The translations under genes and the position numbers were made by a program. Below the pieces are notes generated by a model. That model did no database searches. It saw only the letters and a program-made list of their open reading frames with translations, and was not told the DNA's origin. Below are positions 1-18,619 of a stretch of 64,000 bases of DNA, in pieces; position 1 is the first letter of the stretch; every line of letters begins with the position of its first letter. Origin of the DNA: a virus; the UHGV virus genome UHGV-0091736; one strand, given 5' to 3'.

Positions 1-3000
1 GGTGCTCTTGTAGGTGCTGCTGAAGCTCAGAACAAGCATGGCGATGACACAACCTTTGCTAATGTATTAGAGGGTGCTATTGAAGAAGGTGCTATGGGTG
101 CTGCATTCGGTGGTGCAGTTGGTGGGGTTCATGGTTTGATTAGCCGTCCAGACTCTGCTGTCTTCAAGAATACTCCAGAGTATGCGAAGACTGATATTGC
201 TGCTGATGATGAACTGATTCGTAGTGCTAAGAATATTGATGAATTGAAAGAAGCTTATTCTAAAGCTGAAACTGCTAACGCTGCTTCCGCTCTTAATCTT
301 CTGGATGAGAATGGATTCCGTATCACAGATGCTGTTGCTGTAGACTCTCCTGCTGCTCAGCGTATTCTTAATACAGACCAAGCTCATGCTGAGAAAGCCG
401 CTTCTGTTCAGAAAGAACATTCCAACATTCCGGGCCTTAATCCTTTAGCTTCTCCTGCTAAGGTTCGTGGTAAAGCTTTCGCTGATAACGAGCACAACCA
501 GAAGCAGGCTGTTGCTATGAAGGATGCAATGGCTGACTACACCAAGGATAATACTAAAACTCTTACAGATGTTCTAGATAACCTAGATCGCGAATTAACA
601 TCTCTCCGAGCTTCTGGTGATTTTACTGGCAGCCCGATTGATATTAAGAATCGTACACAAGCTGACCGTGATTTCATTGATGCTTACAAGACTTTCTACA
701 ATGAAGCAAATCGATTTAAATCCCGTGAAGGTGAAGACTTTAATAACTTTGTAGAGAAAGCTACTGAACTACAGAAGATGGCTGATAATGTTTCTCCAGA
801 GATGAAGAAAGCTATCGGTGGGTTGAAGAAACTGAAAGGTATGCCTGAAGGTTTTAATCCTATCCAAGATGCTTACACTCTGAATAATACAGCCAAATTT
901 ATGAGTAACCAAGATCGTGGTTGGACTTCCCTGACTGATGATGGCTTCCGTGAGGCTTCTTCTCCTAGTCTGGTAATGAATACTCTTGGTGCTGCTAAAT
1001 ATGCTCTGAATCGCTTCTCTTCTCAGCGTGCTCGTTCTCAACGTGTTAAGCAACAAGAATCTAACAGTGAAGCTATCCGCTCTCTGGCTCGTGGTGATTT
1101 GGAAGTTGCTCGTGCTAAATCTACTGCTGATGAAGCTCGCGCTAAGATGGAAGAAGAGCCAGTTGTTGATGACATTAAATTTAAGACGCAAAATGACGTG
1201 GAAACCGAACCGGTTCGGGAGCCTTCTTCTAGTACTGTGACGGAAGAAAATCTTCCTTCTTCTGCTCCTCAAGAAACTCCTCTTACAGCTCGTGATTTAG
1301 TTGCGCAAAGACGTGCTATCCGTCAGGCTGAACAGCGTCGCGCTGAAGAGGAGGCATTGGCTGCTCAAGAAGCTCCGGTAGAACAATCTCCACAGGCTGA
1401 ACCTCTCCCTGCTCGTAACCCTTTAGAGGAGCGTCGTGCAATGGAACAGCAACGTGCTCAAGAAGAGGCCGTACAGGCTCCAGAACCAACCGTAGAGGAA
1501 CCAACAGTCAAAGCTGAGCCATTACCTGCCCGTGCTCCTAAAGCTCCTAAGGAAGCTGTACAGGACGTTAAACCGGCAAGTGGTGTAGAACGTTTAGCTG
1601 CTATGTCTAGTGCTGCTCGTCAGGCTACTAAAGATCGTGCAGAACGCTTTGCTCGTTCTCTGTACTCTAAGGCTGCTAAGGCTAAAGCTACTGCTGAAAA
1701 CTTCTTGGCTTATAAAGGTGACCCTAAGGAATTGATGCGTCGTATTCGTCAGGAAGACAATGCTATCAATACTGAACGTCATGAAGAAATGGCTCGTAAC
1801 CAGCTGGCTTCTCAGCAAGGCATTGCTACTGCTAAGAACAACACTGTACGAACTAATTTTGCTGAATGGGTTAAGGAACGTGGTCTGCCAGAAGACATTG
1901 CTACTAAGGCATTACGTGCTGAAGAGAAAGGTTTAGGTGGGAACGTAACTAACTTGGATAGTCTGAAACGTCGTGCTGAAAGGTTGTATCAGAAGCAGCG
2001 TGAGGATGAGTTTGATAGACTGTATCAACAAGCTCTAGAAGAGAACAAAGCTTTTGATAAGAAAGATGCTCCTAAGCTGGTTGACCAGAAGAAAGAGCTT
2101 CAGTCTGAGATTGATGCTTTGATTGATTCAGAACCTTTACGTCCTGCTCAGAAAGATGCTATGCGTAAGCTGATGAATGACTTTGTAGATGGGAAGTTTA
2201 AATCTTCAGAGAAGGCTGGTAGGGAAGAGGCTTTGGAAGTTGGTCAGATGAAGGATATTTGGGATGGGTTTATTAACACCTACAACAGAGAAGTGAATGC
2301 CTTCAACAAAGCTAACAAGAACTCTCAGTACGAAGCTGCTGCTAAGCATTTACAGGCTCGTGAAGAACGCCTTGCTACTCTGAAAAACAAAGCTCAGGCT
2401 CGTTCAGATGCTAAGGCTGCTGTTGAGAATGAACGTAAAACTCTAGAGGCTATTGCAGCTCAGAAGAGTGAGATTGAGAAGATGATGGAAGGTTTACCTA
2501 AACCTGTTCGTGAGGCTCAGGAATCTCGTACATTGAAACAGTTGGCTGCTCACCACGATAAGAACTCTCCAGTTCCTCCAGAGAAGTTCCGTAGTTATAT
2601 TGAACGTATCCATAACGCCGAGTCAGATTACCTTGATCGTCAGCGTCGTTTAACTGATGCAGAGGAGGATGCTCGTCAGGCTAAGTGGAACAAGATGTAT
2701 GAGCAAGCGGAAGAACTCAATCGTAAGTTTGATGTGGACAAGAGAGTTAAGCGCAGTGAAGAGCTTAAAGCAGCCCAAGAGCGTGAGAATGATCTTATGG
2801 CAGTACAACGTCAACGTGATGACATTCATCGCCGTCTGATGCGTACTATGGAAGATAAGGGAATATCTAGAGAGGATGCTGAAGCATTTGCTGGTTCCTA
2901 TATGGATAACCGTTATGCACTTCTTGAGAAGCCTATGACTCCGACTGAACATCAGAATGCTCGCTCTCGTATCGAAGCTGATGTTGAGAAGTTCGCTAAG

Positions 3001-3774
3001 AAGTATGAATCAATGACTCCTATCGAGAAAGAGATTGTTAAGGTTACTGGAGATACTGAAGGTAAACTTGATAACTTGGATGCGGATACTAGGAAGGCTA
3101 TTGAGGAGGCTCAGAAGGTTGACTCTGATATTAAGAAACTGCAAGAGGAAGAGTTGGAGATGGAGAAGGTTCGTTCTGCTCTGCCTGACGATGAAAGATC
3201 TCAAGCAAGTTCTGATATCTTGGAAAGCATTAAACAGCAGGAAGAAGCCTTTGCTGATAAAGCAGAGAAAGCGTTCTTGAATGGGAAGAGCTTGGATGAG
3301 TTAGTTAGTGTGGCTGAAGTTTTAGACAGAGTTCATGGTGCAGATAAGGCTGGTAACAACCGTCGCTTTGTACGTGCATTGCAGACTGCTGCTGAAAACA
3401 AGAAGAAGTATGGAGATAATCCGGTAGCTTGGTTTAGTGCTGATGATTATTCTGCCATTGCTAAACTTGGTGCTTCTTCCGCAGGTGGTAACAAATCCAG
3501 AGCACTGGAGAAGATCTTTGGTTCTACAGCTGAACAGGCTAAGAGTAAGTTGCTTGGTAGGGATGATGTAGCGAAGATGAGACGTGTGATTGAAGAGAAC
3601 CCTGATATTAAGATTCCTTCTTACAAGACAACGAATCGTACTGAGTACTTGCAGTTCTTGGAGAAGTTTAATGACGAAGGGAAGCCGAAGATTAAACGTG
3701 GCTCATTGTCAGAGAAGCTTGAACGCAGTAAGCGTCAATCGAGACTCCGTGTAAGAGTTCGACCTAAGGAGTGA
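1..3774 (+). CDS. Large coiled-coil-rich virion-associated protein, 5-prime partial (frame is open from window position 1); possible internal/ejection or tape-measure-like protein
   Basis: Over 1226 aa, Ala/Glu/Lys/Arg-rich with long predicted helical stretches, Gly/Ala-rich N-terminal part, basic C-terminus; same strand as the structural operon and followed by a terminator. Confidence 0.35.
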   Translation, partial: GALVGAAEAQNKHGDDTTFANVLEGAIEEGAMGAAFGGAVGGVHGLISRPDSAVFKNTPEYAKTDIAADDELIRSAKNIDELKEAYSKAETANAASALNLLDENGFRITDAVAVDSPAAQRILNTDQAHAEKAASVQKEHSNIPGLNPLASPAKVRGKAFADNEHNQKQAVAMKDAMADYTKDNTKTLTDVLDNLDRELTSLRASGDFTGSPIDIKNRTQADRDFIDAYKTFYNEANRFKSREGEDFNNFVEKATELQKMADNVSPEMKKAIGGLKKLKGMPEGFNPIQDAYTLNNTAKFMSNQDRGWTSLTDDGFREASSPSLVMNTLGAAKYALNRFSSQRARSQRVKQQESNSEAIRSLARGDLEVARAKSTADEARAKMEEEPVVDDIKFKTQNDVETEPVREPSSSTVTEENLPSSAPQETPLTARDLVAQRRAIRQAEQRRAEEEALAAQEAPVEQSPQAEPLPARNPLEERRAMEQQRAQEEAVQAPEPTVEEPTVKAEPLPARAPKAPKEAVQDVKPASGVERLAAMSSAARQATKDRAERFARSLYSKAAKAKATAENFLAYKGDPKELMRRIRQEDNAINTERHEEMARNQLASQQGIATAKNNTVRTNFAEWVKERGLPEDIATKALRAEEKGLGGNVTNLDSLKRRAERLYQKQREDEFDRLYQQALEENKAFDKKDAPKLVDQKKELQSEIDALIDSEPLRPAQKDAMRKLMNDFVDGKFKSSEKAGREEALEVGQMKDIWDGFINTYNREVNAFNKANKNSQYEAAAKHLQAREERLATLKNKAQARSDAKAAVENERKTLEAIAAQKSEIEKMMEGLPKPVREAQESRTLKQLAAHHDKNSPVPPEKFRSYIERIHNAESDYLDRQRRLTDAEEDARQAKWNKMYEQAEELNRKFDVDKRVKRSEELKAAQERENDLMAVQRQRDDIHRRLMRTMEDKGISREDAEAFAGSYMDNRYALLEKPMTPTEHQNARSRIEADVEKFAKKYESMTPIEKEIVKVTGDTEGKLDNLDADTRKAIEEAQKVDSDIKKLQEEELEMEKVRSALPDDERSQASSDILESIKQQEEAFADKAEKAFLNGKSLDELVSVAEVLDRVHGADKAGNNRRFVRALQTAAENKKKYGDNPVAWFSADDYSAIAKLGASSAGGNKSRALEKIFGSTAEQAKSKLLGRDDVAKMRRVIEENPDIKIPSYKTTNRTEYLQFLEKFNDEGKPKIKRGSLSEKLERSKRQSRLRVRVRPKE

Positions 3775-3783
3775 TAAAAGAAA

Positions 3784-3818
3784 AGCCCCCAATCGAAAGA
3801 AAGGGGGCTTTATTGTTT
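3784..3818 (+). terminator. Rho-independent terminator after the large plus-strand gene
   Basis: Stem AGCCCCC / GGGGGCT with 12-nt loop followed by a T-rich run. Confidence 0.55.
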
Positions 3819-3978
3819 CTAAGTTTTAAAAACCATCAAATTCGTCATACATCCCAATTTTCCTCGGCTGCTAAGTAAGACTCTTCTCTGGCTTTTATTT
3901 CTTCAATAATCTCTGTAAGGTGATTTGCCATTTTAAGCAATTCATCTAGAATATCTTGACTATAGATCATATTTCCTC

Positions 3979-4206
3979 CTAGATCAAATCATAATATTGA
4001 ATAATGTCTGAGAGCTTGAACTCTCGAATCTCATCTTTCTCTACATCAATCGCTGTCATAATCCAACAAGGTTTGCCACTGTTATGAAAACGGGAGCTAG
4101 CAACGGAGGTTCGGAGTGGAATAACGGACCGGTCAGCAACCTCGCCTCTCCAATTACGATAGCGAAAGCGAAGCACTTGTTGCGTAGATTTTTGATCATC
4201 ACTCAT
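3979..4206 (-). CDS. Hypothetical protein (about 75 aa)
   Basis: ATG overlaps the stop of the upstream HNH gene (ATGAGTGA), suggesting translational coupling; the longer track ORF 3979..4347 overlaps that gene. Confidence 0.35.
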   Translation of the reverse strand: MSDDQKSTQQVLRFRYRNWRGEVADRSVIPLRTSVASSRFHNSGKPCWIMTAIDVEKDEIREFKLSDIIQYYDLI

Positions 4207-4600
4207 TTCCTTTTTTGAATTGTTTTCTTGCATCATTCTCTTCTCTTGTTTTAATCTTATGACAAGGATCTTTACACAGAACCTGAAAACCTTCTTTCTC
4301 ACACAGGGCACGAGAGATGATTTCATCCCAAGTCGCTTCATGATCAAGAGGAACGATAGGATTTATATGATCTATAGCCATATCCTTTACAGGGTGGTCA
4401 GAACCACACATGGCACACTTAAAGTGCATTGCCAGTCTACCTGTCTTTGGATTAATCTTCTGCTCTGTCTTGGCGTCTGCTAGTGCATCGAACATGGGCT
4501 TCCACTTTCTAGTCAGAGAACGAATCCCTGACTTGATGAAAGAATTATAACGAGCTTCAGTCCACGTTCCACTACAGCGTGTCTTCTCAGACTTCGCCAT
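4199..4600 (-). CDS. HNH endonuclease
   Basis: CAMCG ... AIDHINP ... CHKIKT spacing typical of HNH zinc-finger nucleases. Confidence 0.6.
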   Translation of the reverse strand: MAKSEKTRCSGTWTEARYNSFIKSGIRSLTRKWKPMFDALADAKTEQKINPKTGRLAMHFKCAMCGSDHPVKDMAIDHINPIVPLDHEATWDEIISRALCEKEGFQVLCKDPCHKIKTREENDARKQFKKGNE

Positions 4601-4776
4601 AATCAGCTTCTTCCCAAACTCGTTTGTTTACACGATGGCTTACTTTGCCCTCACGAGGAATACGACCAGTCCGCTGATCAAACAGTTGATGCTTGATCTT
4701 TTGGTCTTTACGGGATTCACGATTGGAGGAGTTTTCATCATATGAACGATAATCAAATTTACCCATTATAATATCC

Positions 4777-5289
4777 TTATTTTATCCAGTCTCTTTCTAT
4801 ATATGAGGTTGTGAGCTTATATCTCTCTGCTTCAGGTGAGAAGATGACTATCACACTTCCTTTAGTGTTACCACTAACACTTTGCTGTGTATCTGCTCTT
4901 GTGAAACTCACACGACCACCTGTTATGAAAACAACCTCATCAGCATGGTTTATACACTTAGTAAACCACTTAACAGAAGTATCAGCTGGTAGTAATAAAA
5001 CTGTACCAACTTTAAGTTTCTTGTTTTTAATTGCCAAGTCAATCCAAGGAGTTATATCTGAATATGGAGGATTACACCAAGTGTAAGTGTTTCTGAACTC
5101 AGAGAAGTCATAAGTTAGAGAATCCATTTCCTCTGTTATATATTTTTCTAGTAGGTGATTCTTATCACTAGACGCTATATCACAAGAGAATTCAAATCTT
5201 TCGTTAAAGAAATCAAACAGCCATTTAGGGGTTTGCCACAAATCTCTAATGTCTTCTGGGGTATTACTAGATCTATAATCTGTTACCAT
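4777..5289 (-). CDS. DNA N6-adenine methyltransferase (phage Dam-like)
   Basis: WQTPKWLFD and CNPPYS motifs. Confidence 0.7.
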   Translation of the reverse strand: MVTDYRSSNTPEDIRDLWQTPKWLFDFFNERFEFSCDIASSDKNHLLEKYITEEMDSLTYDFSEFRNTYTWCNPPYSDITPWIDLAIKNKKLKVGTVLLLPADTSVKWFTKCINHADEVVFITGGRVSFTRADTQQSVSGNTKGSVIVIFSPEAERYKLTTSYIERDWIK

Positions 5290-6119
5290 TCTCTATCCAA
5301 CCATGTCCAATCAAATAAATCTTCCGGAGTCTGACCAACAAAAAGTAGCCGAGCGTTCTCAAGCATCTTCTCTTCATCTTCAGTGTCGAACTTCTTATAG
5401 TATTCCATTCGTACTATATGATACATGGTCCACTTATCTGTAACATCAGCCAGTAATTTAGCTGCTGCCTTCTTCCCTATACCTTGACGTCGAAGCTGAA
5501 GCTTGCCGCCCCACATAACTTCTTTACGTTCTCCACATCCGGGGATATTATCCGTACCGTCTCCAATCAACATTTGATAGAAGAAGTTTTGCCATGAGAC
5601 TAAATCAGATACATAATGAGGGGGAACCTCTTTCTGTCTTTCTCCACAAGCCCAGCGATAGTGCCATCCGGGGGTTATTAATAAATCTTTGTCTCTAGTA
5701 CAGATGATAGTGTTCTTGTCTCTACGCTGCCTCTCAGCTAGAGCGTCATCAGCTTCTCTACCAAAGACGTCAACATGCTCATAGCGCTCTTTGATGTAAT
5801 CTCCGACCGCTTTCCAGTGGAAGGGTTTCTCAGATATCGCTCGATTACCTTTATAATCTTGTTGCTTAGCAATATCGAAACGGAAGTTACCACCTTCGCT
5901 GAAGTAGAATACAACCTTACTACAGCCTGAGCGAGCTATGATTGTATCAATCTTATACTGAAGTCGTTCAATCATGAAATTATAATCAACTGGAACACGT
6001 CCTGTGTCAAGGAAGGGATGCTCCTGGGTAAGAGCACCTACCTCGTATCGAAGAACGTCACTGTCTATTATGGCAATCTCTGGTGGTGCCGGTGTTTCCT
6101 TATTCATCATTACCTCCAT
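5283..6119 (-). CDS. 5-prime to 3-prime exonuclease / flap endonuclease
   Basis: LIGDGTDNIPG ... GIGKKAAAKLL helix-hairpin-helix signature of the FEN family. Confidence 0.75.
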   Translation of the reverse strand: MEVMMNKETPAPPEIAIIDSDVLRYEVGALTQEHPFLDTGRVPVDYNFMIERLQYKIDTIIARSGCSKVVFYFSEGGNFRFDIAKQQDYKGNRAISEKPFHWKAVGDYIKERYEHVDVFGREADDALAERQRRDKNTIICTRDKDLLITPGWHYRWACGERQKEVPPHYVSDLVSWQNFFYQMLIGDGTDNIPGCGERKEVMWGGKLQLRRQGIGKKAAAKLLADVTDKWTMYHIVRMEYYKKFDTEDEEKMLENARLLFVGQTPEDLFDWTWLDREW

Positions 6120-6570
6120 GATGTCTCACCATGTGGCAATTGGCACATAACATCACACACTTATCCAGTTCAGGTTTCATTGTCTCAAACCCTCTCTTAT
6201 TACTAGGGTTAAAATCTTTTTGTGTTGGGTCTAGATGGTGAAATTGGTAAACACATTGCGGGAACACTCCTTTGCAATCAAAACACTCTCCTCCCATGTA
6301 TTCTACAGCCAGTCTTTTTGTGTTTCTCCGTATTCGGTTTTCATTGTTTTGTCTATGCCGTCTGTTATCAGAATACCACTTATTAATCCGTTCCCTATTA
6401 CAAGACCTGCATGTTCCTGTTACCCCGAATTTACAGCTTTTATGTGGGTGAAAATCTTTTAACAGCTTAACCTCTTTACAAACATTACAGATCTTTGTAA
6501 TGACAGCATCCACTAGAGCAACTTCAGGGAGCTTAACTTCTTCCATAAATATCATCCTGAGCTTGAGCAA
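6100..6570 (-). CDS. HNH endonuclease
   Basis: FHHLDP ... CANCH motifs with several CxxC pairs. Confidence 0.65.
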   Translation of the reverse strand: MLKLRMIFMEEVKLPEVALVDAVITKICNVCKEVKLLKDFHPHKSCKFGVTGTCRSCNRERINKWYSDNRRHRQNNENRIRRNTKRLAVEYMGGECFDCKGVFPQCVYQFHHLDPTQKDFNPSNKRGFETMKPELDKCVMLCANCHMVRHHGGNDE

Positions 6571-15493: not shown

Positions 15494-15745
15494 TTAAACT
15501 CCTTTAGGGAATGGGATGAGGTTTTCTACTGCAACACGAAAAGATTTTTCTACATTCTTATTCTTATAAGAAATGAATTTACCATCAGCACCACGAAGGA
15601 TTACGTTAGTACGAGCTGTATTGGAAACTAAAGTGATCATAGAGATGGTGTTATTTTTTGAGTTGTTGTAGTTGTTATCGAAAGTCCACTTATCCAGACG
15701 ATCATCCATTACATCAATAATAGTTACAGTTTTTACGATAGACAT
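15494..15745 (-). CDS. Hypothetical protein, paralog of 15208..15492
   Basis: Shared motifs with the adjacent gene. Confidence 0.4.
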   Translation of the reverse strand: MSIVKTVTIIDVMDDRLDKWTFDNNYNNSKNNTISMITLVSNTARTNVILRGADGKFISYKNKNVEKSFRVAVENLIPFPKGV

Positions 15746-15776
15746 ATTTGTTACCTAAGAAGTTTAGTTTGGTTTA

Positions 15777-15809
15777 TATAAAAGAAAAGGCCACCCATTT
15801 GGGTAGCCT
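15777..15809 (-). terminator. Rho-independent terminator
   Basis: Hairpin GGCCACCC-ATTT-GGGTAGCC with T-run on the minus strand. Confidence 0.45.
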
Positions 15810-15813
15810 TATA

Positions 15814-16131
15814 TCATGATGAGCTTAAAGCTCCTTTGCGTGCTCCAGCTGCTTTTCCAGCTCGATCACCACTTTTGCCGCCGTTTGAACGGTTTGAGCT
15901 GACTGATTCAACACGTAAGTTGCTTGACGCATTAGAGCCTCCAGACTTGATAGCTCGTTTGTGTCCAACGTCTTTACCTCTGACAGCAGCTTTTCCATCG
16001 CGCTTTTCAACGATGCGACGTGCACGGTGGCGCTGAGCATCTCCGCTCTTGCTCCCAATGCCTGTTTCACCACGGGCAATTGCGGTACGTCTTTCTTGTG
16101 CATAATCTCTCTTTCCTACATGGTCTGCCAT
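15814..16131 (-). CDS. Basic Gly/Ser/Arg/Lys-rich protein; an alternative overlapping frame 15825..16103 also encodes a helical 92-aa ORF
   Basis: AAGGAG 7 nt upstream of ATG at 16131; the two frames cannot be separated by eye. Confidence 0.35.
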   Translation of the reverse strand: MADHVGKRDYAQERRTAIARGETGIGSKSGDAQRHRARRIVEKRDGKAAVRGKDVGHKRAIKSGGSNASSNLRVESVSSNRSNGGKSGDRAGKAAGARKGALSSS

Positions 16132-16167
16132 TTAAAACTCCTTAACATATCAGTGTACACTAAGGAG

Positions 16168-16176
16168 TATACATTA
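16168..16176 (-). promoter_or_regulatory. TAATGTATA promoter-like element
   Basis: Exact 9-mer on the minus strand about 37 nt upstream of the start at 16131. Confidence 0.4.
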
Positions 16177-16187
16177 TAAGTTACTGT

Positions 16188-17906
16188 TTAAGCTTTCTTT
16201 TCCATTGCTTTAACAATCGCCTTACAGAAACCAGAACGAACAATATCATCTGATTCACCATCTACAATCTCAGCAAACTCATACAGATCATGTTCATCAA
16301 TAAAGTTAGTAGCCCAAGTAAGACCACTCTCACGACCACGCATATCATGCTGGTTAGTATCACCCATGCAGAACAGCTGAGAGGTTTCTCCCAATCGAGT
16401 CATGATTGAGAAGGCTTCATCTTTAGTTGTGTTCTGGAACTCATCCACGATAACAATGGCATCATTGAAAGAGCGACCACGGAGATATTCCAGAGGTACA
16501 AATTCAATGTTACCATTTCCGATTTGGCATTCATAGAACCCCTTACCATATCGCTGAGTAATAACATCAATGATAGGCATCAGGTATGGTTCAAACTTCT
16601 CACGCATCCCCCCCGGAAGTAACCCAAGAGAGTTACCCATGCCGACCGAAGGGCGACTCAGAATGATCTTCTGAATCTTACCACTCTTCAGTGCATCAAT
16701 AACTGTGGAAGTGATTACAAAGGTCTTACCACAGTTACCTGTCACGAAAATGTTATCATCTCGACGGAGCAACAGAGCACCTGTTGAGGTTGTAAAGCAA
16801 TATTTAAAACCATCCTCCGTCTTCATCTTTGTGATCACAGCTTTCCCAGATTGTGGGTTGTTTGGGGTAATACTGATATGTGTCTGTTTAGAGAAATAAA
16901 CACGATACTCTAGAGATTTACGAGTATATCCACCATACTCCCGACCAACTCTGTCGTAAGTTATGATAGATGATTTGTAACCACACTGCATTCCTACAAA
17001 CTGGATATAGTCTGCATCATCTTTATCGGAAGTAAAGAAAGGTGGTAGTCTATTTCCTTGTAGGGCAAAACCCCCGTCCCAGAATTTAATCTCATCAAAG
17101 ATGATTTTAGCATCACTCTTGTTACACAAAGGCCAGTCTTTATACCTTTTAGTCGCACCTAGAAGAGAGAAAGATATTACATGAAACCCTGTATCATCTG
17201 ACTTTTCTGAGTAATCTAAATGGAGAGTATCCAATAACTCTTTGAGTCGAGAAATCTTCCTCTCTTTCTTTAATCTGAAGACGAATCGCGAGGTGGACTC
17301 TGTTTCCAAGTGGGCATCAGCCTTGATGGCAACATGAAGACGTAATTCAGGTTCAGATAGACCTAAACTTTTCCCTGAAACAAAGTTGGATGTAGTTTTA
17401 ATTAGACCCTCAAACCCTATCTTCTTCTTGTGGTGCCTTGAAAGAAGATCAGATACCTTGATTTTGTTCGCTTTGTCTTTATCTCCCTTACGATAATAAA
17501 CGACATTATGGTCATCACATAACGCCTGAGATATCCCACGGTATGTTTTAAACAAGTTCAACTCTTTACACTCTTGTTTAATATAAGCTACAGGTTTTTC
17601 TAAATGAGACTCTCCTGTGGTTAAGTTTACTGCTGTTATTAAATCACCTTCCACATAGTCAGAAATCTTTTTCCATCCAAACTCTGAGAGAAACTCGGTA
17701 TCCTTATCAACACAGCCCGCAGGAGCGTCTGTGAACACAACTTGTTTAGTCTTAATAGCATTGAGTAGCTCAGACTGAAACTGGTTCTGAGGGACTACAG
17801 GCTTTGCTAAAACCACCTCTTCATACTCTCGCTTACCCTTACGAGTAACAAGTGCTTCCCGACGAAGGTCTTTCCGTGATTCTTTCCTTGATTGACGACG
17901 ACTCAT
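16188..17906 (-). CDS. phoH: PhoH-like ATPase interrupted by an intein
   Basis: N-extein ends DAPAG, C-extein begins CGKTF; joined gives Walker A APAGCGKT, then Walker B IVIVDEFQNTT. Confidence 0.75.
   Translation of the reverse strand: MSRRQSRKESRKDLRREALVTRKGKREYEEVVLAKPVVPQNQFQSELLNAIKTKQVVFTDAPAGCVDKDTEFLSEFGWKKISDYVEGDLITAVNLTTGESHLEKPVAYIKQECKELNLFKTYRGISQALCDDHNVVYYRKGDKDKANKIKVSDLLSRHHKKKIGFEGLIKTTSNFVSGKSLGLSEPELRLHVAIKADAHLETESTSRFVFRLKKERKISRLKELLDTLHLDYSEKSDDTGFHVISFSLLGATKRYKDWPLCNKSDAKIIFDEIKFWDGGFALQGNRLPPFFTSDKDDADYIQFVGMQCGYKSSIITYDRVGREYGGYTRKSLEYRVYFSKQTHISITPNNPQSGKAVITKMKTEDGFKYCFTTSTGALLLRRDDNIFVTGNCGKTFVITSTVIDALKSGKIQKIILSRPSVGMGNSLGLLPGGMREKFEPYLMPIIDVITQRYGKGFYECQIGNGNIEFVPLEYLRGRSFNDAIVIVDEFQNTTKDEAFSIMTRLGETSQLFCMGDTNQHDMRGRESGLTWATNFIDEHDLYEFAEIVDGESDDIVRSGFCKAIVKAMEKKA
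16734..17714 (-). mobile_element. Intein (about 327 aa) inserted in the PhoH P-loop
   Basis: Starts with Cys (CVDKDTEF), ends with Asn (GN) before extein Cys; size leaves room for an endonuclease domain. Confidence 0.55.
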
Positions 17907-18088
17907 TTACGCTCTCCAATTTCTTCGTAATGACACTCAGTGGTTAAACAATCTTTACAGATTGCTGTGTAAACCCTGACGTTAGTAAATCGTTTGTTCT
18001 TCCCTTTGGTTGGAGAGCCTTTGGCAAGCTCTCTGATAACCTTGTTACTTAAATGAAGGTTTGTTCCTTCACATTTAGAGCACTTCAT
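17903..18088 (-). CDS. Small zinc-ribbon protein
   Basis: CSKC ... CKDC pairs. Confidence 0.4.
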   Translation of the reverse strand: MKCSKCEGTNLHLSNKVIRELAKGSPTKGKNKRFTNVRVYTAICKDCLTTECHYEEIGERK

Positions 18089-18404
18089 GGTTCATATCTT
18101 TATGAATCCTGTAAACAGCTGTCGCCATACAAGCAACAGCCTCATTGTGTGGGAGGTGCATCCCTGTAGAACCATCCCAATCTTTGAACTCATTGTCAAA
18201 GACTCCAGTAGGCTCTGGATACAGAGCTTGCAGCTCCACTAGATCATTAGCAACTTGTTGCCATTTATCATCAGACCAGATAGGGTCATCCAACCAGTAA
18301 TACAAATAGGAATGGATGATCAATTGCCTTCTGTGCCGATTAATTACTTCAGCGGGACTTATTTCACTTCCATTTGAAGTCCTAAATGTATTACTGTCAA
18401 TCAT
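18075..18404 (-). CDS. Hypothetical protein
   Basis: ORF only. Confidence 0.35.
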   Translation of the reverse strand: MIDSNTFRTSNGSEISPAEVINRHRRQLIIHSYLYYWLDDPIWSDDKWQQVANDLVELQALYPEPTGVFDNEFKDWDGSTGMHLPHNEAVACMATAVYRIHKDMNHEVL

Positions 18405-18619
18405 TTCACAACCTTAAATTTGAATGTTGTTGGGTGGTAATAGTGCAATCTATTGATAATGTGCTTATTCTCATGATAGGTAATACAAGCATGGCACATG
18501 GAATGAGTTAAACCAGTTACAGAATTAGGTTTAAAGTTGACAATAGGCTTCTCTTTCTTACAGAAGCTACACACTTTATGTGTCATCAGTTCTCCAAAGT
18601 TTTCTTCAGAGCTGCCCAT
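18401..18619 (-). CDS. Small Cys/His-rich (zinc-binding?) protein
   Basis: CSFC ... CHAC pairs. Confidence 0.35.
   Translation of the reverse strand: MGSSEENFGELMTHKVCSFCKKEKPIVNFKPNSVTGLTHSMCHACITYHENKHIINRLHYYHPTTFKFKVVK

What the first reader, a model, noticed from the sequence alone, without database searches (positions are those of the whole stretch)
16734..17714. Intein inserted in the Walker A P-loop of a PhoH-like ATPase
The 572-aa ORF has PhoH-like sequence only in its first 64 and last 181 residues; between them is a 327-aa insert starting with Cys and ending GN before an extein Cys. Removing it gives APAG-CGKT, a normal Walker A. The insert is large enough to hold a homing endonuclease domain.
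Basis: partly seen in the sequence, partly recalled or inferred. Interest (0 to 1): 0.7.

Follow-up and report, generated by a model that had tools for sequence, protein, structure and literature searches.

The report
Homing intein splitting a phage PhoH P-loop
A 327-residue self-splicing protein element (an intein carrying its own DNA-cutting homing enzyme) sits exactly inside the ATP-binding loop of the PhoH-like ATPase of an E. coli Kuravirus phage; it is a real but ordinary kind of selfish element, notable mainly because no relative among the 80 phage records that hold this phoH gene has it and because its family has an unusual catalytic signature.

Summary
ORF 16188..17906 (-) encodes 572 aa, and residues 65-391 (window 16734..17714) are an in-frame 981-bp insert. 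It starts with Cys, ends Gly-Asn and is followed by Cys.

Deleting it gives a 245-aa protein 100% identical to the PhoH-like protein of phage SU10. Eighty related phage records hold phoH at about 97% DNA identity without the insert.

Pfam, NCBIfam and single-sequence PDB searches find no intein in the insert. Other evidence does:
- The AlphaFold2 model (pLDDT 91.9) matches endonuclease-containing inteins (TliVMA, PI-SceI, PI-PfuI) and I-DmoI.
- The insert belongs to a family of about 2,200 protein clusters.
- In 162 full-length members, Cys1 is invariant, the C-terminus is GN in 155, and the +1 residue is always C, S or T.
- 132 of the 162 sit at the same G|[CST]GK[ST] Walker A position, in PhoH, RecD-like, DnaB-like and other ATPases.

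It is therefore a LAGLIDADG homing intein, very probably splicing-competent.

The family also carries an invariant Cys at block F:4 and Thr at G:5. Its closest solved relative by sequence is the class 3 AceL NrdHF intein. Whether splicing starts at Cys1 or at Cys306 is open.

Verdict: new member of a known kind, moderate interest.

The parts
16188..17906 (-). phoH precursor gene (572 aa): N-extein, intein, C-extein
   Evidence: Its start codon overlaps the stop of the upstream ORF, the same arrangement as in SU10.
17715..17906 (-). N-extein, aa 1-64, ending ...FTDAPAG (first half of Walker A)
   Evidence: 100% aa identical to SU10 PhoH residues 1-64.
16734..17714 (-). Intein, 327 aa (precursor aa 65-391), CVDKDTEF...IFVTGN
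   Evidence: Absent from 80 related phage records. AF2 pLDDT 91.9. Foldseek matches to TliVMA, PhoVMA, PI-SceI and PI-PfuI inteins. Family statistics.
17457..17714 (-). N-terminal Hint (splicing) part, about intein residues 1-86. Block A has Cys1 (17712-17714). Block B is C66-D-D-H69 (His69 codon 17508-17510).
   Evidence: All-beta in the AF2 model. Family profile positions 8-103 align to the AceL NrdHF intein at E 3e-9. C1 and H69 are invariant in the family. Boundaries are approximate.
16929..17456 (-). LAGLIDADG homing-endonuclease domain, about intein residues 87-262. Motif 1 is VAIKAD133A (codon 17316-17318). Motif 2 is IKFWD213GG (codon 17076-17078). Conserved Lys153 and Lys231.
   Evidence: Foldseek matches to I-DmoI and I-Tsp061I over about 176 columns. 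Pfam LAGLIDADG_3 hits 7 of 32 family members. This region is missing in mini-intein relatives P0011 and P0012. D133, K153, W212 and D213 are conserved. Boundaries are approximate.
16734..16928 (-). C-terminal Hint part, about intein residues 263-327. Block F is KYC306FTT (Cys306 codon 16797-16799). Block G is IFVT325-G326-N327 (Asn codon 16734-16736).
   Evidence: Beta strands in the AF2 model. In the 163-sequence alignment, C306 is found in 162, R317 in 163, T325 in 160, G326 in 156 and N327 in 163.
16188..16733 (-). C-extein, aa 392-572 plus stop, starting Cys+1-GKT (second half of Walker A; Cys+1 codon 16731-16733)
   Evidence: Pfam PhoH positions 22-205. Identical in protein sequence to SU10 PhoH residues 65-245.

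Best explanation
The insert is a bifunctional homing intein: a Hint splicing domain with a nested LAGLIDADG endonuclease. It is encoded in frame inside the Walker A (P-loop) codons of the phoH-like gene of a Kuravirus (SU10/phiEco32-like) coliphage.

Shown here:
- It is a precise 981-bp in-frame insertion that intein-less relatives lack.
- Its removal recreates exactly their PhoH protein.
- It has the Hint plus LAGLIDADG fold.
- It carries every residue that is invariant in a large family of elements, most of which sit at the same P-loop position of many different ATPases.

Inferred (splicing):
- The 572-aa precursor has a split P-loop and is therefore not an ATPase.
- The intein excises itself after translation.
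- Most likely the Cys1 thiol attacks the Gly(-1) carbonyl to make a thioester, helped by His69 and Cys66 of block B.
- The N-extein then passes to Cys+1, with the invariant block-F Cys306 and Thr325 assisting or relaying.
- Asn327 cyclises without a penultimate His and releases the intein.
- An S-to-N shift gives the 245-aa PhoH with the sequence APAGCGKT.

Inferred (homing):
- The freed intein's endonuclease (acidic residues D133 and D213) cuts intein-less phoH alleles of co-infecting Kuraviruses at the P-loop codons.
- Repair from the intein-bearing copy spreads the element.
For: Empty-site alleles:
- 80 phage records hold phoH at 90-99% DNA identity. In all of them the match skips the insert, so 43% of the query is covered in 2 pieces spanning 738 bp.
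- The spliced product is 100% identical to SU10 PhoH.
- Pfam PhoH covers the full model only after removal of the insert.

Fold:
- AF2 model pLDDT 91.9, pTM 0.89.
- Top PDB matches are all endonuclease-containing inteins: 7qsu at E 6e-14, then 7qst, 1vde, 1dq3 and 2cw7.
- The central domain matches I-DmoI.

Family:
- 2,231 cluster representatives at E<=1e-3 and 381 at E<=1e-30. All of the 150 best listed are embedded inside larger proteins, and all but one (query residues 1-324) match the full 327 residues.
- In 162 full-length copies: Cys1 in 162; C-terminal GN in 155 and HN in 3; +1 residue C in 80, S in 76, T in 6.
- 132 of 162 have flanks G|[CST][GAS]K[STD].
- Hosts include RecD2-like, PhoH, DnaB-like, Toprim primase, PIF1, MCM, AAA/FtsH, ABC and RtcB proteins.
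- Mini-intein versions lacking the endonuclease domain exist at the same PhoH site.
- The nearest relatives (43-51% identity) are in PhoH proteins at the same site, yet their exteins are only 20-32% identical to this PhoH. That is a signature of horizontal transfer.

Integrity and sequence link:
- The window copy keeps 29 of the 31 positions that are at least 90% conserved.
- The family profile hits the solved AceL NrdHF intein at E 3e-9.
- A phage intein with a penultimate Gly splices efficiently, and changing that Gly to His slows it (Kelley 2016, PMC5050341).
- No intron RNA family is found in the region.
Against: - No curated intein model (Pfam Intein_splicing, Hint_2 or LAGLIDADG_3; NCBIfam intein N- and C-terminal models) matches this copy.
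- The penultimate His is Gly. Block B:7 is Cys rather than Thr or Ser. Block F:4 is Cys rather than Asp.
- The Gly after the first LAGLIDADG Asp is Ala here, as in only 6 of the 162 relatives, so endonuclease activity is less certain than splicing.
- Splicing and homing were not observed; both are inferences.
- The identical exteins could simply reflect a very recent insertion rather than continued selection for a working PhoH.
Confidence: 0.87

Rival explanations
1. It is the same element, but it splices by a class 3-type route. The internal block-F Cys306, not Cys1, makes the first attack on the N-terminal junction and forms a branched thioester. The N-extein is then passed to Cys+1. Cys1 would be dispensable for chemistry, or would serve another role such as a redox or disulphide switch with Cys306.
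For: - Cys at F:4 is found in 162 of 163 aligned sequences and Thr at G:5 in 160 of 163. These are two of the three residues of the class 3 WCT signature (PMC2807308).
- The closest solved relative by sequence is AceL NrdHF (E 3e-9). It is an experimentally proven class 3 intein with Ser B:7, His B:10, Met B:12, Cys F:4, Thr G:5, no His at G:6 and a C-terminal Asn (PMC7891396). That is the same constellation as here, except for position 1.
- Class 3 inteins are stated not to require a position-1 nucleophile even when one is present (PMC5222942).
Against: - Cys1 is invariant in 162 of 162 members drawn from clusters at 50% identity or less. That is hard to explain if it were dispensable; in class 3 inteins position 1 is Ala, Pro or similar.
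- Block B:12 is Val, Ile or Leu, not Trp.
- The +1 residue is Cys in half of the family, which is rare in class 3.
- Published class 3 sets are defined by the absence of Cys1.
Confidence: 0.3
2. The insert is a decayed, splicing-dead intein remnant. In that case phoH in this phage is effectively a pseudogene, or makes only a 572-aa precursor with no ATPase activity.
For: - Non-canonical residues at B:7 (Cys), F:4 (Cys) and G:6 (Gly).
- No curated profile hit.
- PhoH function in phages is unknown and might be dispensable.
Against: - The non-canonical residues are family traits, not private lesions: GN in 155 of 162, Cys F:4 in 162 of 163, and Cys B:7 in 24 of 163.
- The copy keeps 29 of 31 highly conserved positions, with no frameshift or stop in 327 codons.
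- The exteins show 22 synonymous and 0 non-synonymous differences from SU10.
- A penultimate Gly supports fast splicing in another phage intein.
Confidence: 0.08
3. It is not a protein-splicing element at all. It could be a permanently retained domain insertion (for example a nuclease module fused into PhoH), an intron with an ORF, or an assembly chimera.
For: Nothing positive. It is considered only because curated intein models were silent.
Against: - Hint fold with the termini of the insert adjacent to a split P-loop.
- Cys1, Asn and a +1 nucleophile are invariant in the family.
- The same element sits at the same Walker A position in unrelated ATPases.
- No Rfam intron hit, and an uninterrupted reading frame.
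- A genuine group I intron elsewhere in the window behaves quite differently: it breaks the frame and carries a separate HNH ORF.
Confidence: 0.02

Closest known systems
Canonical class 1 inteins with a nested LAGLIDADG endonuclease (PI-SceI/Sce VMA1, TliVMA, PhoVMA, PI-PfuI)
   Same: - Same two-domain architecture and fold (Foldseek E 6e-14 to 1e-7, TMq 0.55-0.64).
- Cys1, block B His, C-terminal Asn and a +1 nucleophile.
- Inserted at a conserved active-site motif.
- Sporadic distribution, with intein-less alleles in close relatives.
   Different: - Sequence identity to these structures is only 8-14%.
- The penultimate residue is Gly, not His.
- Block F:4 is Cys, not Asp.
- Block G:5 is an almost invariant Thr.
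- Not recognised by the Pfam or NCBIfam intein models.
AceL NrdHF split intein (PDB 6zgq; Hoffmann et al. 2020, PMC7891396), an atypical class 3 intein from an Antarctic lake phage-like contig
   Same: - It is the closest solved structure by sequence (family profile E 3e-9 over blocks A-B) and is also a fold hit.
- It has the same active-site constellation: Ser/Thr-type B:7, His B:10, aliphatic rather than Trp B:12, Cys F:4, Thr G:5, non-His G:6 and a terminal Asn.
   Different: - AceL NrdHF starts with Ala1. It is naturally split, has no in-frame endonuclease and sits in an RNR subunit.
- The window intein has an invariant Cys1, is contiguous, carries a LAGLIDADG domain and sits in a P-loop.
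P-loop inteins of other ATPases (Pho RadA, Msm DnaBi1, mycobacteriophage TerL1-a/b; Novikova 2016, Kelley 2016)
   Same: - Insertion inside Walker A, so the precursor cannot bind or hydrolyse ATP until splicing.
- The host residue that serves as the +1 nucleophile is part of the motif.
   Different: The 'classic' P-loop site is between Lys and Ser/Thr (GK|T). This family sits two residues earlier, between the fourth and fifth Walker A positions (GxxG|[CST]GKT).
Mycobacterial PhoH inteins (M. fortuitum, M. xenopi; Kelley 2018, PMC6195587)
   Same: Inteins in PhoH-family proteins have been described.
   Different: Those are class 3 mini-inteins with the WCT triplet, in bacterial chromosomes. I did not compare their insertion site. 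The window element belongs to a different sequence family and carries an endonuclease.
Unannotated PhoH inteins of other phages (PHROG 32482; Acinetobacter phages YMC13/03/R2096, AM24 and P577; Vibrio phages)
   Same: Same intein family. For the metagenomic PhoH relatives it is the same PhoH Walker A site. The match to phrog_32482 is E 6e-81, and the Acinetobacter phage copies are 45% identical.
   Different: - Only 45-51% identical.
- The host PhoH exteins are only 20-32% identical.
- None is annotated as an intein in the records seen.

Membership tests
Intein (protein-splicing Hint element) | In-frame insertion in a conserved host protein whose precise removal restores the host motif; intein-less alleles exist | tested here: met
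   Removal gives APAGCGKT and a protein 100% identical to SU10 PhoH. 80 intein-less records were found.
Intein (protein-splicing Hint element) | Nucleophile (Cys/Ser/Thr) at position 1 | tested here: met
   Cys1 in the window, and in 162 of 162 family members.
Intein (protein-splicing Hint element) | Block B TxxH motif (His B:10) | tested here: met
   His69 is invariant. B:7 is Cys in the window. Across the 163-sequence alignment (window included) it is Ser in 124, Cys in 24 and Thr in 15.
Intein (protein-splicing Hint element) | C-terminal Asn followed by a Cys/Ser/Thr +1 residue | tested here: met
   Asn327|Cys+1 in the window. In the family, Asn is found in 163 of 163, and the +1 residue is C in 80, S in 76 and T in 6.
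Intein (protein-splicing Hint element) | Penultimate His (G:6) | tested here: not met
   Gly326, with GN in 155 of 162 members. This residue is not obligatory: penultimate-Gly phage inteins splice (PMC5050341), and AceL NrdHF also lacks it.
Intein (protein-splicing Hint element) | Hint fold | tested here: met
   The AF2 model (pLDDT 91.9) matches solved inteins at Foldseek probability 1.00, E down to 6e-14.
Intein (protein-splicing Hint element) | Match to curated intein sequence models (Pfam PF14890 and related, NCBIfam intein termini) | tested here: not met
   No hit on the window copy. No Hint-model hit on any of 32 family members. The family profile does hit solved inteins.
Intein (protein-splicing Hint element) | Demonstrated excision and extein ligation | not testable with these tools
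   Needs expression with SDS-PAGE and mass spectrometry.
LAGLIDADG homing endonuclease (intein-nested) | Two LAGLIDADG helices, each with a catalytic acidic residue, in an alpha-beta-beta-alpha-beta-beta-alpha core | tested here: met
   - Fold matches to I-DmoI, I-Tsp061I and the PI-SceI endonuclease domain.
- D133 is found in 158 of 163 and D213 in 157 of 163 aligned sequences, and both are present in the window.
- LAGLIDADG_3 hits 7 of 32 members.
- In the window, motif 1 reads ADA instead of ADG.
LAGLIDADG homing endonuclease (intein-nested) | Site-specific cleavage of the intein-less allele | not testable with these tools
   Needs an in vitro cleavage assay on SU10-type phoH DNA.
Class 3 inteins | No nucleophile at position 1 | tested here: not met
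   Cys1 is invariant.
Class 3 inteins | WCT triplet: Trp B:12, Cys F:4, Thr G:5 | tested here: inconclusive
   Cys306 (F:4) and Thr325 (G:5) are present and nearly invariant. B:12 is Val, Ile or Leu. The proven class 3 AceL NrdHF intein also lacks the Trp.
Class 3 inteins | Block-F branched thioester intermediate; Cys F:4 absolutely required | not testable with these tools
   Needs C306A and C1A mutants and thiol-lability assays.
PhoH-like ATPase (host protein, Pfam PF02562) | Full-length match to the PhoH model, with Walker A and Walker B | tested here: met
   The spliced product scores 191 bits over model positions 2-205 of 205. NCBIfam PRK10536 PhoH gives E 1.7e-45, which is below its equivalog cut-off.

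The most novel reading that the evidence does not exclude
The 'CVDKDTEF...YCF...TGN' family may be neither a plain class 1 nor a class 3 intein. It could be a mechanistic hybrid or evolutionary intermediate in which both invariant cysteines are required. One version is a thioester relay: Cys1 to Cys F:4 to the +1 residue. Another is a Cys1-Cys306 disulphide that gates splicing, which would make P-loop ATPase activation redox-dependent. It would then be the Cys1-bearing sister of the AceL NrdHF class 3 intein, and a living example of the proposed class 1 to class 3 transition in phages.
Probability: 0.22. Interest if true: 0.65.

Novelty: new member of a known kind. Interest (0 to 1): 0.4.

Why it matters
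- It corrects the annotation: a 572-aa 'PhoH' is really a 245-aa PhoH plus a mobile intein.
- No match to the intein's DNA was found in 50,697 phage records or 5,426 E. coli genomes, and no paper in the searched library links inteins with Kuravirus. A 2024 paper even states that inteins are unreported in coliphages.
- The phage offers a clean natural pair for measuring intein homing in an easy E. coli system. One allele carries the intein and the other lacks it, the exteins are 97% identical in DNA, and the PhoH proteins are identical.
- The family is large (about 2,200 clusters) and is invisible to Pfam and NCBIfam intein models. It targets one Walker A position across many ATPase families.
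- The family combines a class 1 N-terminal Cys with class 3-like block F and G residues. It is therefore a useful test case for how splicing mechanisms evolve, and a possible source of new splicing tools.

Tried and rejected
- Pfam, NCBIfam and single-sequence PDB phmmer on the insert gave no intein hit. The best results were noise: DUF3368, FlgF and ribosomal L24.
- I tested whether the experimentally studied penultimate-Gly RDF intein of mycobacteriophage Bethlehem belongs to this family. tblastn of the window intein against Bethlehem 30-52 kb found nothing, so that paper is a precedent only, not direct evidence for this family.
- Megablast of the intein DNA found no match in E. coli genomes. 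In the phage collection the phoH-gene query matched only the exteins, so no close DNA copy of the intein turned up. The exact source could not be identified.
- The word-indexed protein search found only 14 relatives. The exhaustive HMMER search was needed to see the family.
- The intron hypothesis was rejected: no Rfam match in 15500-18500.
- A tblastn of the intein against the window found no second copy.
- Tori & Perler 2011 (PMC3133030), on class 3 inteins that retain Ser1 or Cys1, is not held in the library.
Full report
**1. The observation**

The minus-strand ORF 16188..17906 encodes 572 aa.
- Residues 1-64 end ...VVFTDAPAG.
- Residues 65-391 are CVDKDTEFLS...DDNIFVTGN.
- Residues 392-572 begin CGKTFVITS.

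The insert maps exactly to window 16734..17714 (981 bp, 327 codons). Pfam PhoH (PF02562) matches only residues 386-569 of the precursor. It matches model positions 2-205 of 205 in the conceptually spliced 245-aa protein, and the score rises from 170 to 191 bits. The insert frame is open, while the other two coding-strand frames hold 20 and 36 stops. From composition, the chance of 327 open codons is about 5e-11.

**2. Context and the empty site**

The window is a Kuravirus (SU10/phiEco32-like E. coli podophage). It is about 94% identical over about 85% of a 24-kb stretch to phages 1-6af, FH3, SR02, ES17 and SU10. Megablast of the phoH gene finds 80 phage records. In every one the match is two pieces covering 43% of the query and spanning 738 bp in the record, which is phoH without the insert.

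Joining the window's exteins gives a DNA with 22 differences from SU10 phoH. All are synonymous, so the protein is 245/245 identical, and the junction in SU10 reads GCGGGC|TGTGGTAAG = APAG|CGKT. The DNA boundary is ambiguous by the 4-nt TGTG shared by the insert start and the C-extein start, as expected for Cys1...Asn|Cys+1.

The insert is slightly AT-richer than its exteins: GC 0.386 against 0.436. No match to its DNA was found in 50,697 phage records or 5,426 E. coli genomes. No relative above 51% protein identity exists among 1.84 billion cluster representatives.

**3. What the insert is**

Curated libraries are silent. There is no Pfam or NCBIfam intein hit, and no PDB hit by single-sequence phmmer. 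Three independent lines nevertheless identify it.

*(a) Structure.* AlphaFold2, run with a 15-sequence alignment, gives pLDDT 91.9 and pTM 0.89. The ends are beta-rich and the core is alpha/beta. Foldseek against the PDB returns only endonuclease-bearing inteins at the top:
- TliVMA (7qsu), E 6e-14
- PhoVMA (7qst), E 3e-12
- PI-SceI, E 3.5e-10
- PI-PfuI, E 5.5e-9
- PI-TkoII, E 1.9e-7

After these come many I-DmoI LAGLIDADG structures matching the central ~176 alignment columns, and the AceL NrdHF intein.

*(b) Family.* Exhaustive HMMER finds 2,231 representatives at E<=1e-3, 946 at E<=1e-10 and 381 at E<=1e-30. All but one of the 150 best matches cover the whole 327 residues, and all are embedded in proteins of 428-1,542 aa. 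Several hosts contain two copies. Among 162 full-length copies:
- Position 1 is Cys in all 162.
- The last two residues are GN in 155 and HN in 3.
- The next host residue is C in 80, S in 76 and T in 6.
- 132 have flanks that reconstitute G|[CST][GAS]K[STD], that is, a Walker A loop.

Hosts are diverse. They include RecD2-like SF1 helicases, PhoH, DnaB-like helicases, Toprim primase-helicases, PIF1, MCM, AAA/FtsH and ABC ATPases, and also RtcB at its DIG|CGM motif. Versions lacking the central domain (mini-inteins) occupy the same PhoH site (P0011 and P0012). Only a mobile intein explains one conserved element at one motif position in unrelated hosts, always with Cys1, Asn and a +1 nucleophile.

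*(c) Sequence link to solved inteins.* A profile of 32 trimmed family members hits the AceL NrdHF intein (6zgq) at E 3.1e-9 and the Spl DnaX mini-intein at 0.003. Pfam LAGLIDADG_3 hits 7 of the 32. PHROG 32482, a 589-position 'PhoH' profile, matches the insert at 6e-81. This shows that phage PhoH proteins with this insert were already clustered, but not recognised as intein-bearing.

**4. Integrity of this copy**

The window copy keeps 29 of the 31 positions that are at least 90% conserved in 162 relatives. The two exceptions are I26 (Val in most) and A134 (Gly in most; Ala in 6). All family-invariant residues are present:
- C1, T6, E7, W14 and H69 (block B His)
- K153, W212 and D213 (second LAGLIDADG motif, 'WDG')
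- C306, R317, T325, G326 and N327

Block B reads C66-D-D-H69. Cys at B:7 recurs in 24 of the 163 aligned sequences, with Ser in 124 and Thr in 15. The endonuclease acidic residues D133 and D213 and the lysines K153 and K231 are intact. The ADG-to-ADA change in motif 1 makes endonuclease activity somewhat less certain than splicing.

**5. Mechanism**

*Shown:* the architecture, the insertion site and the conserved catalytic set.

*Inferred:*
- The precursor's P-loop is split by 327 residues, so it cannot act as an ATPase.
- The Hint domain excises itself and ligates APAG to CGKT.
- The released LAGLIDADG enzyme cuts intein-less phoH in co-infecting Kuraviruses and is copied in by repair.

Horizontal movement is supported. 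The nearest inteins (43-51% identity; P0015-P0019 and P0021) are in PhoH proteins, all but P0019 at the same site, yet their exteins are only 20-32% identical to this PhoH.

The missing penultimate His is not a defect. It is the family norm. A penultimate-Gly mycobacteriophage intein splices completely and is slowed by Gly-to-His (PMC5050341). That intein belongs to a different family, as I checked.

**6. An unresolved mechanistic point**

Standard class 1 inteins have Asp at block F:4. Cys at F:4 with Thr at G:5 is the hallmark of class 3 inteins, in which that Cys, not residue 1, makes the first attack (PMC2807308 and PMC4031507). This family has Cys306 at F:4 in 162 of 163 aligned sequences and Thr325 at G:5 in 160 of 163. 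It also has an invariant Cys1, and Val, Ile or Leu rather than Trp at B:12.

Its closest solved relative, AceL NrdHF, is a proven class 3 intein. That intein has Ala1, Ser B:7, His B:10, Met B:12, Cys F:4, Thr G:5, no His at G:6 and a terminal Asn (PMC7891396). This is the same active site except for residue 1.

I favour initiation at Cys1, because its absolute conservation argues that it is used, with Cys306 in an assisting or relay role. A class 3-type route (about 0.3) or a dual-cysteine or redox mechanism cannot be excluded without mutants.

**7. Comparison with what is known, and novelty**

Several things are already known:
- Inteins with LAGLIDADG domains, P-loop insertion and phage hosts are well established (PMC4760082, PMC5050341).
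- PhoH inteins have been described in mycobacteria, as class 3 mini-inteins (PMC6195587).
- This very family already sits unannotated in Acinetobacter, Vibrio, Bacillus, Pseudomonas and some Escherichia (Avunavirus) phage records.

Two things are new here. First, the host: none of the 80 phage records that hold this phoH gene has the insert, and no paper in the library links inteins with Kuravirus, phiEco32 or SU10. A 2024 paper states that inteins are unreported in coliphages. Second, the family-level description: its site is two residues upstream of the 'classic' GK|T P-loop site, it is invisible to curated models, and it carries a class 1/class 3 hybrid signature.

I file it as a new member of a known kind, of moderate interest.

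**8. Rivals rejected**

- *Dead remnant.* The odd residues are family traits, the conserved set is intact, and the exteins show 0 non-synonymous changes.
- *Permanent domain fusion.* The Hint fold and the invariant splice-junction residues argue against it.
- *Intron or assembly artefact.* The frame is continuous and there is no Rfam hit. By contrast, the real group I intron found elsewhere in this window breaks its host frame.

**9. Seen in passing**

The same phage carries:
- a group I intron with an HNH ORF in its primase/helicase gene;
- a window-specific cysteine-rich ORF ending in a C-x-x-C-H...HH motif;
- a window-specific Dam methyltransferase.

This genome is unusually rich in selfish elements compared with phage 1-6af.

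Noticed in passing
window 24493-25112 (Rfam match 24542-25275, minus strand; nested ORF 24671-25006, minus strand): A 620-bp insertion absent from phage 1-6af splits the primase/helicase gene. The relative has one 596-aa CDS. In the window, exon 1 ends ...GSRSLMR and exon 2 resumes WCQCIIGF. It matches Rfam group I intron RF00028 over the full model at 38.3 bits (below the gathering score of 50), E 5.6e-8. It carries a 111-aa HNH_3 endonuclease ORF (Pfam E 8.7e-9). This is probably a mobile group I intron.
   Followed up: partly
window 6077-6503 (ORF 6100-6570, minus strand): A 427-bp stretch with no counterpart at the colinear position in phage 1-6af. It contains most of a 156-aa ORF with CxxC pairs and a C-terminal CANCHMVRHH motif, which looks like a free-standing HNH-type endonuclease. 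There was no Pfam hit at E<=0.01.
   Followed up: partly
window 4782-5282 (ORF 4777-5289, minus strand): A 501-bp stretch with no counterpart at the colinear position in phage 1-6af. It encodes a 170-aa phage Dam-type N6-adenine DNA methyltransferase (Pfam PF05869, E 1.8e-48).
   Followed up: partly
P0019 (metagenomic PhoH, 579 aa), intein at residues 93-414: The same intein family sits at a second, different PhoH site (PLEAG|SDRIGFLP, near the conserved G-x-LPG motif) rather than in the Walker A loop. PhoH therefore has at least two insertion sites for this family.
   Followed up: no
P0020, P0023, P0026, P0028 and others (895-1,268 aa): Some host proteins carry two copies of this intein family at different sites, for example Walker A plus a DE|C Walker B/DEAD-like site, or LAHA|SIGH.
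   Followed up: no
L004 (Escherichia phage 19-1-2, Avunavirus) 2411-5987: The terminase large subunit holds a member of the same intein family (31.5% identity). It is annotated as three separate 'terminase large subunit' CDSs with an HNH homing endonuclease gene between two of them. Inteins are thus present but unannotated in other coliphages.
   Followed up: partly
window 17903-17906: The phoH start codon overlaps the stop of the upstream 61-aa ORF (ATGA), the same arrangement as in SU10. This suggests translational coupling within a long minus-strand early/middle gene block.
   Followed up: no
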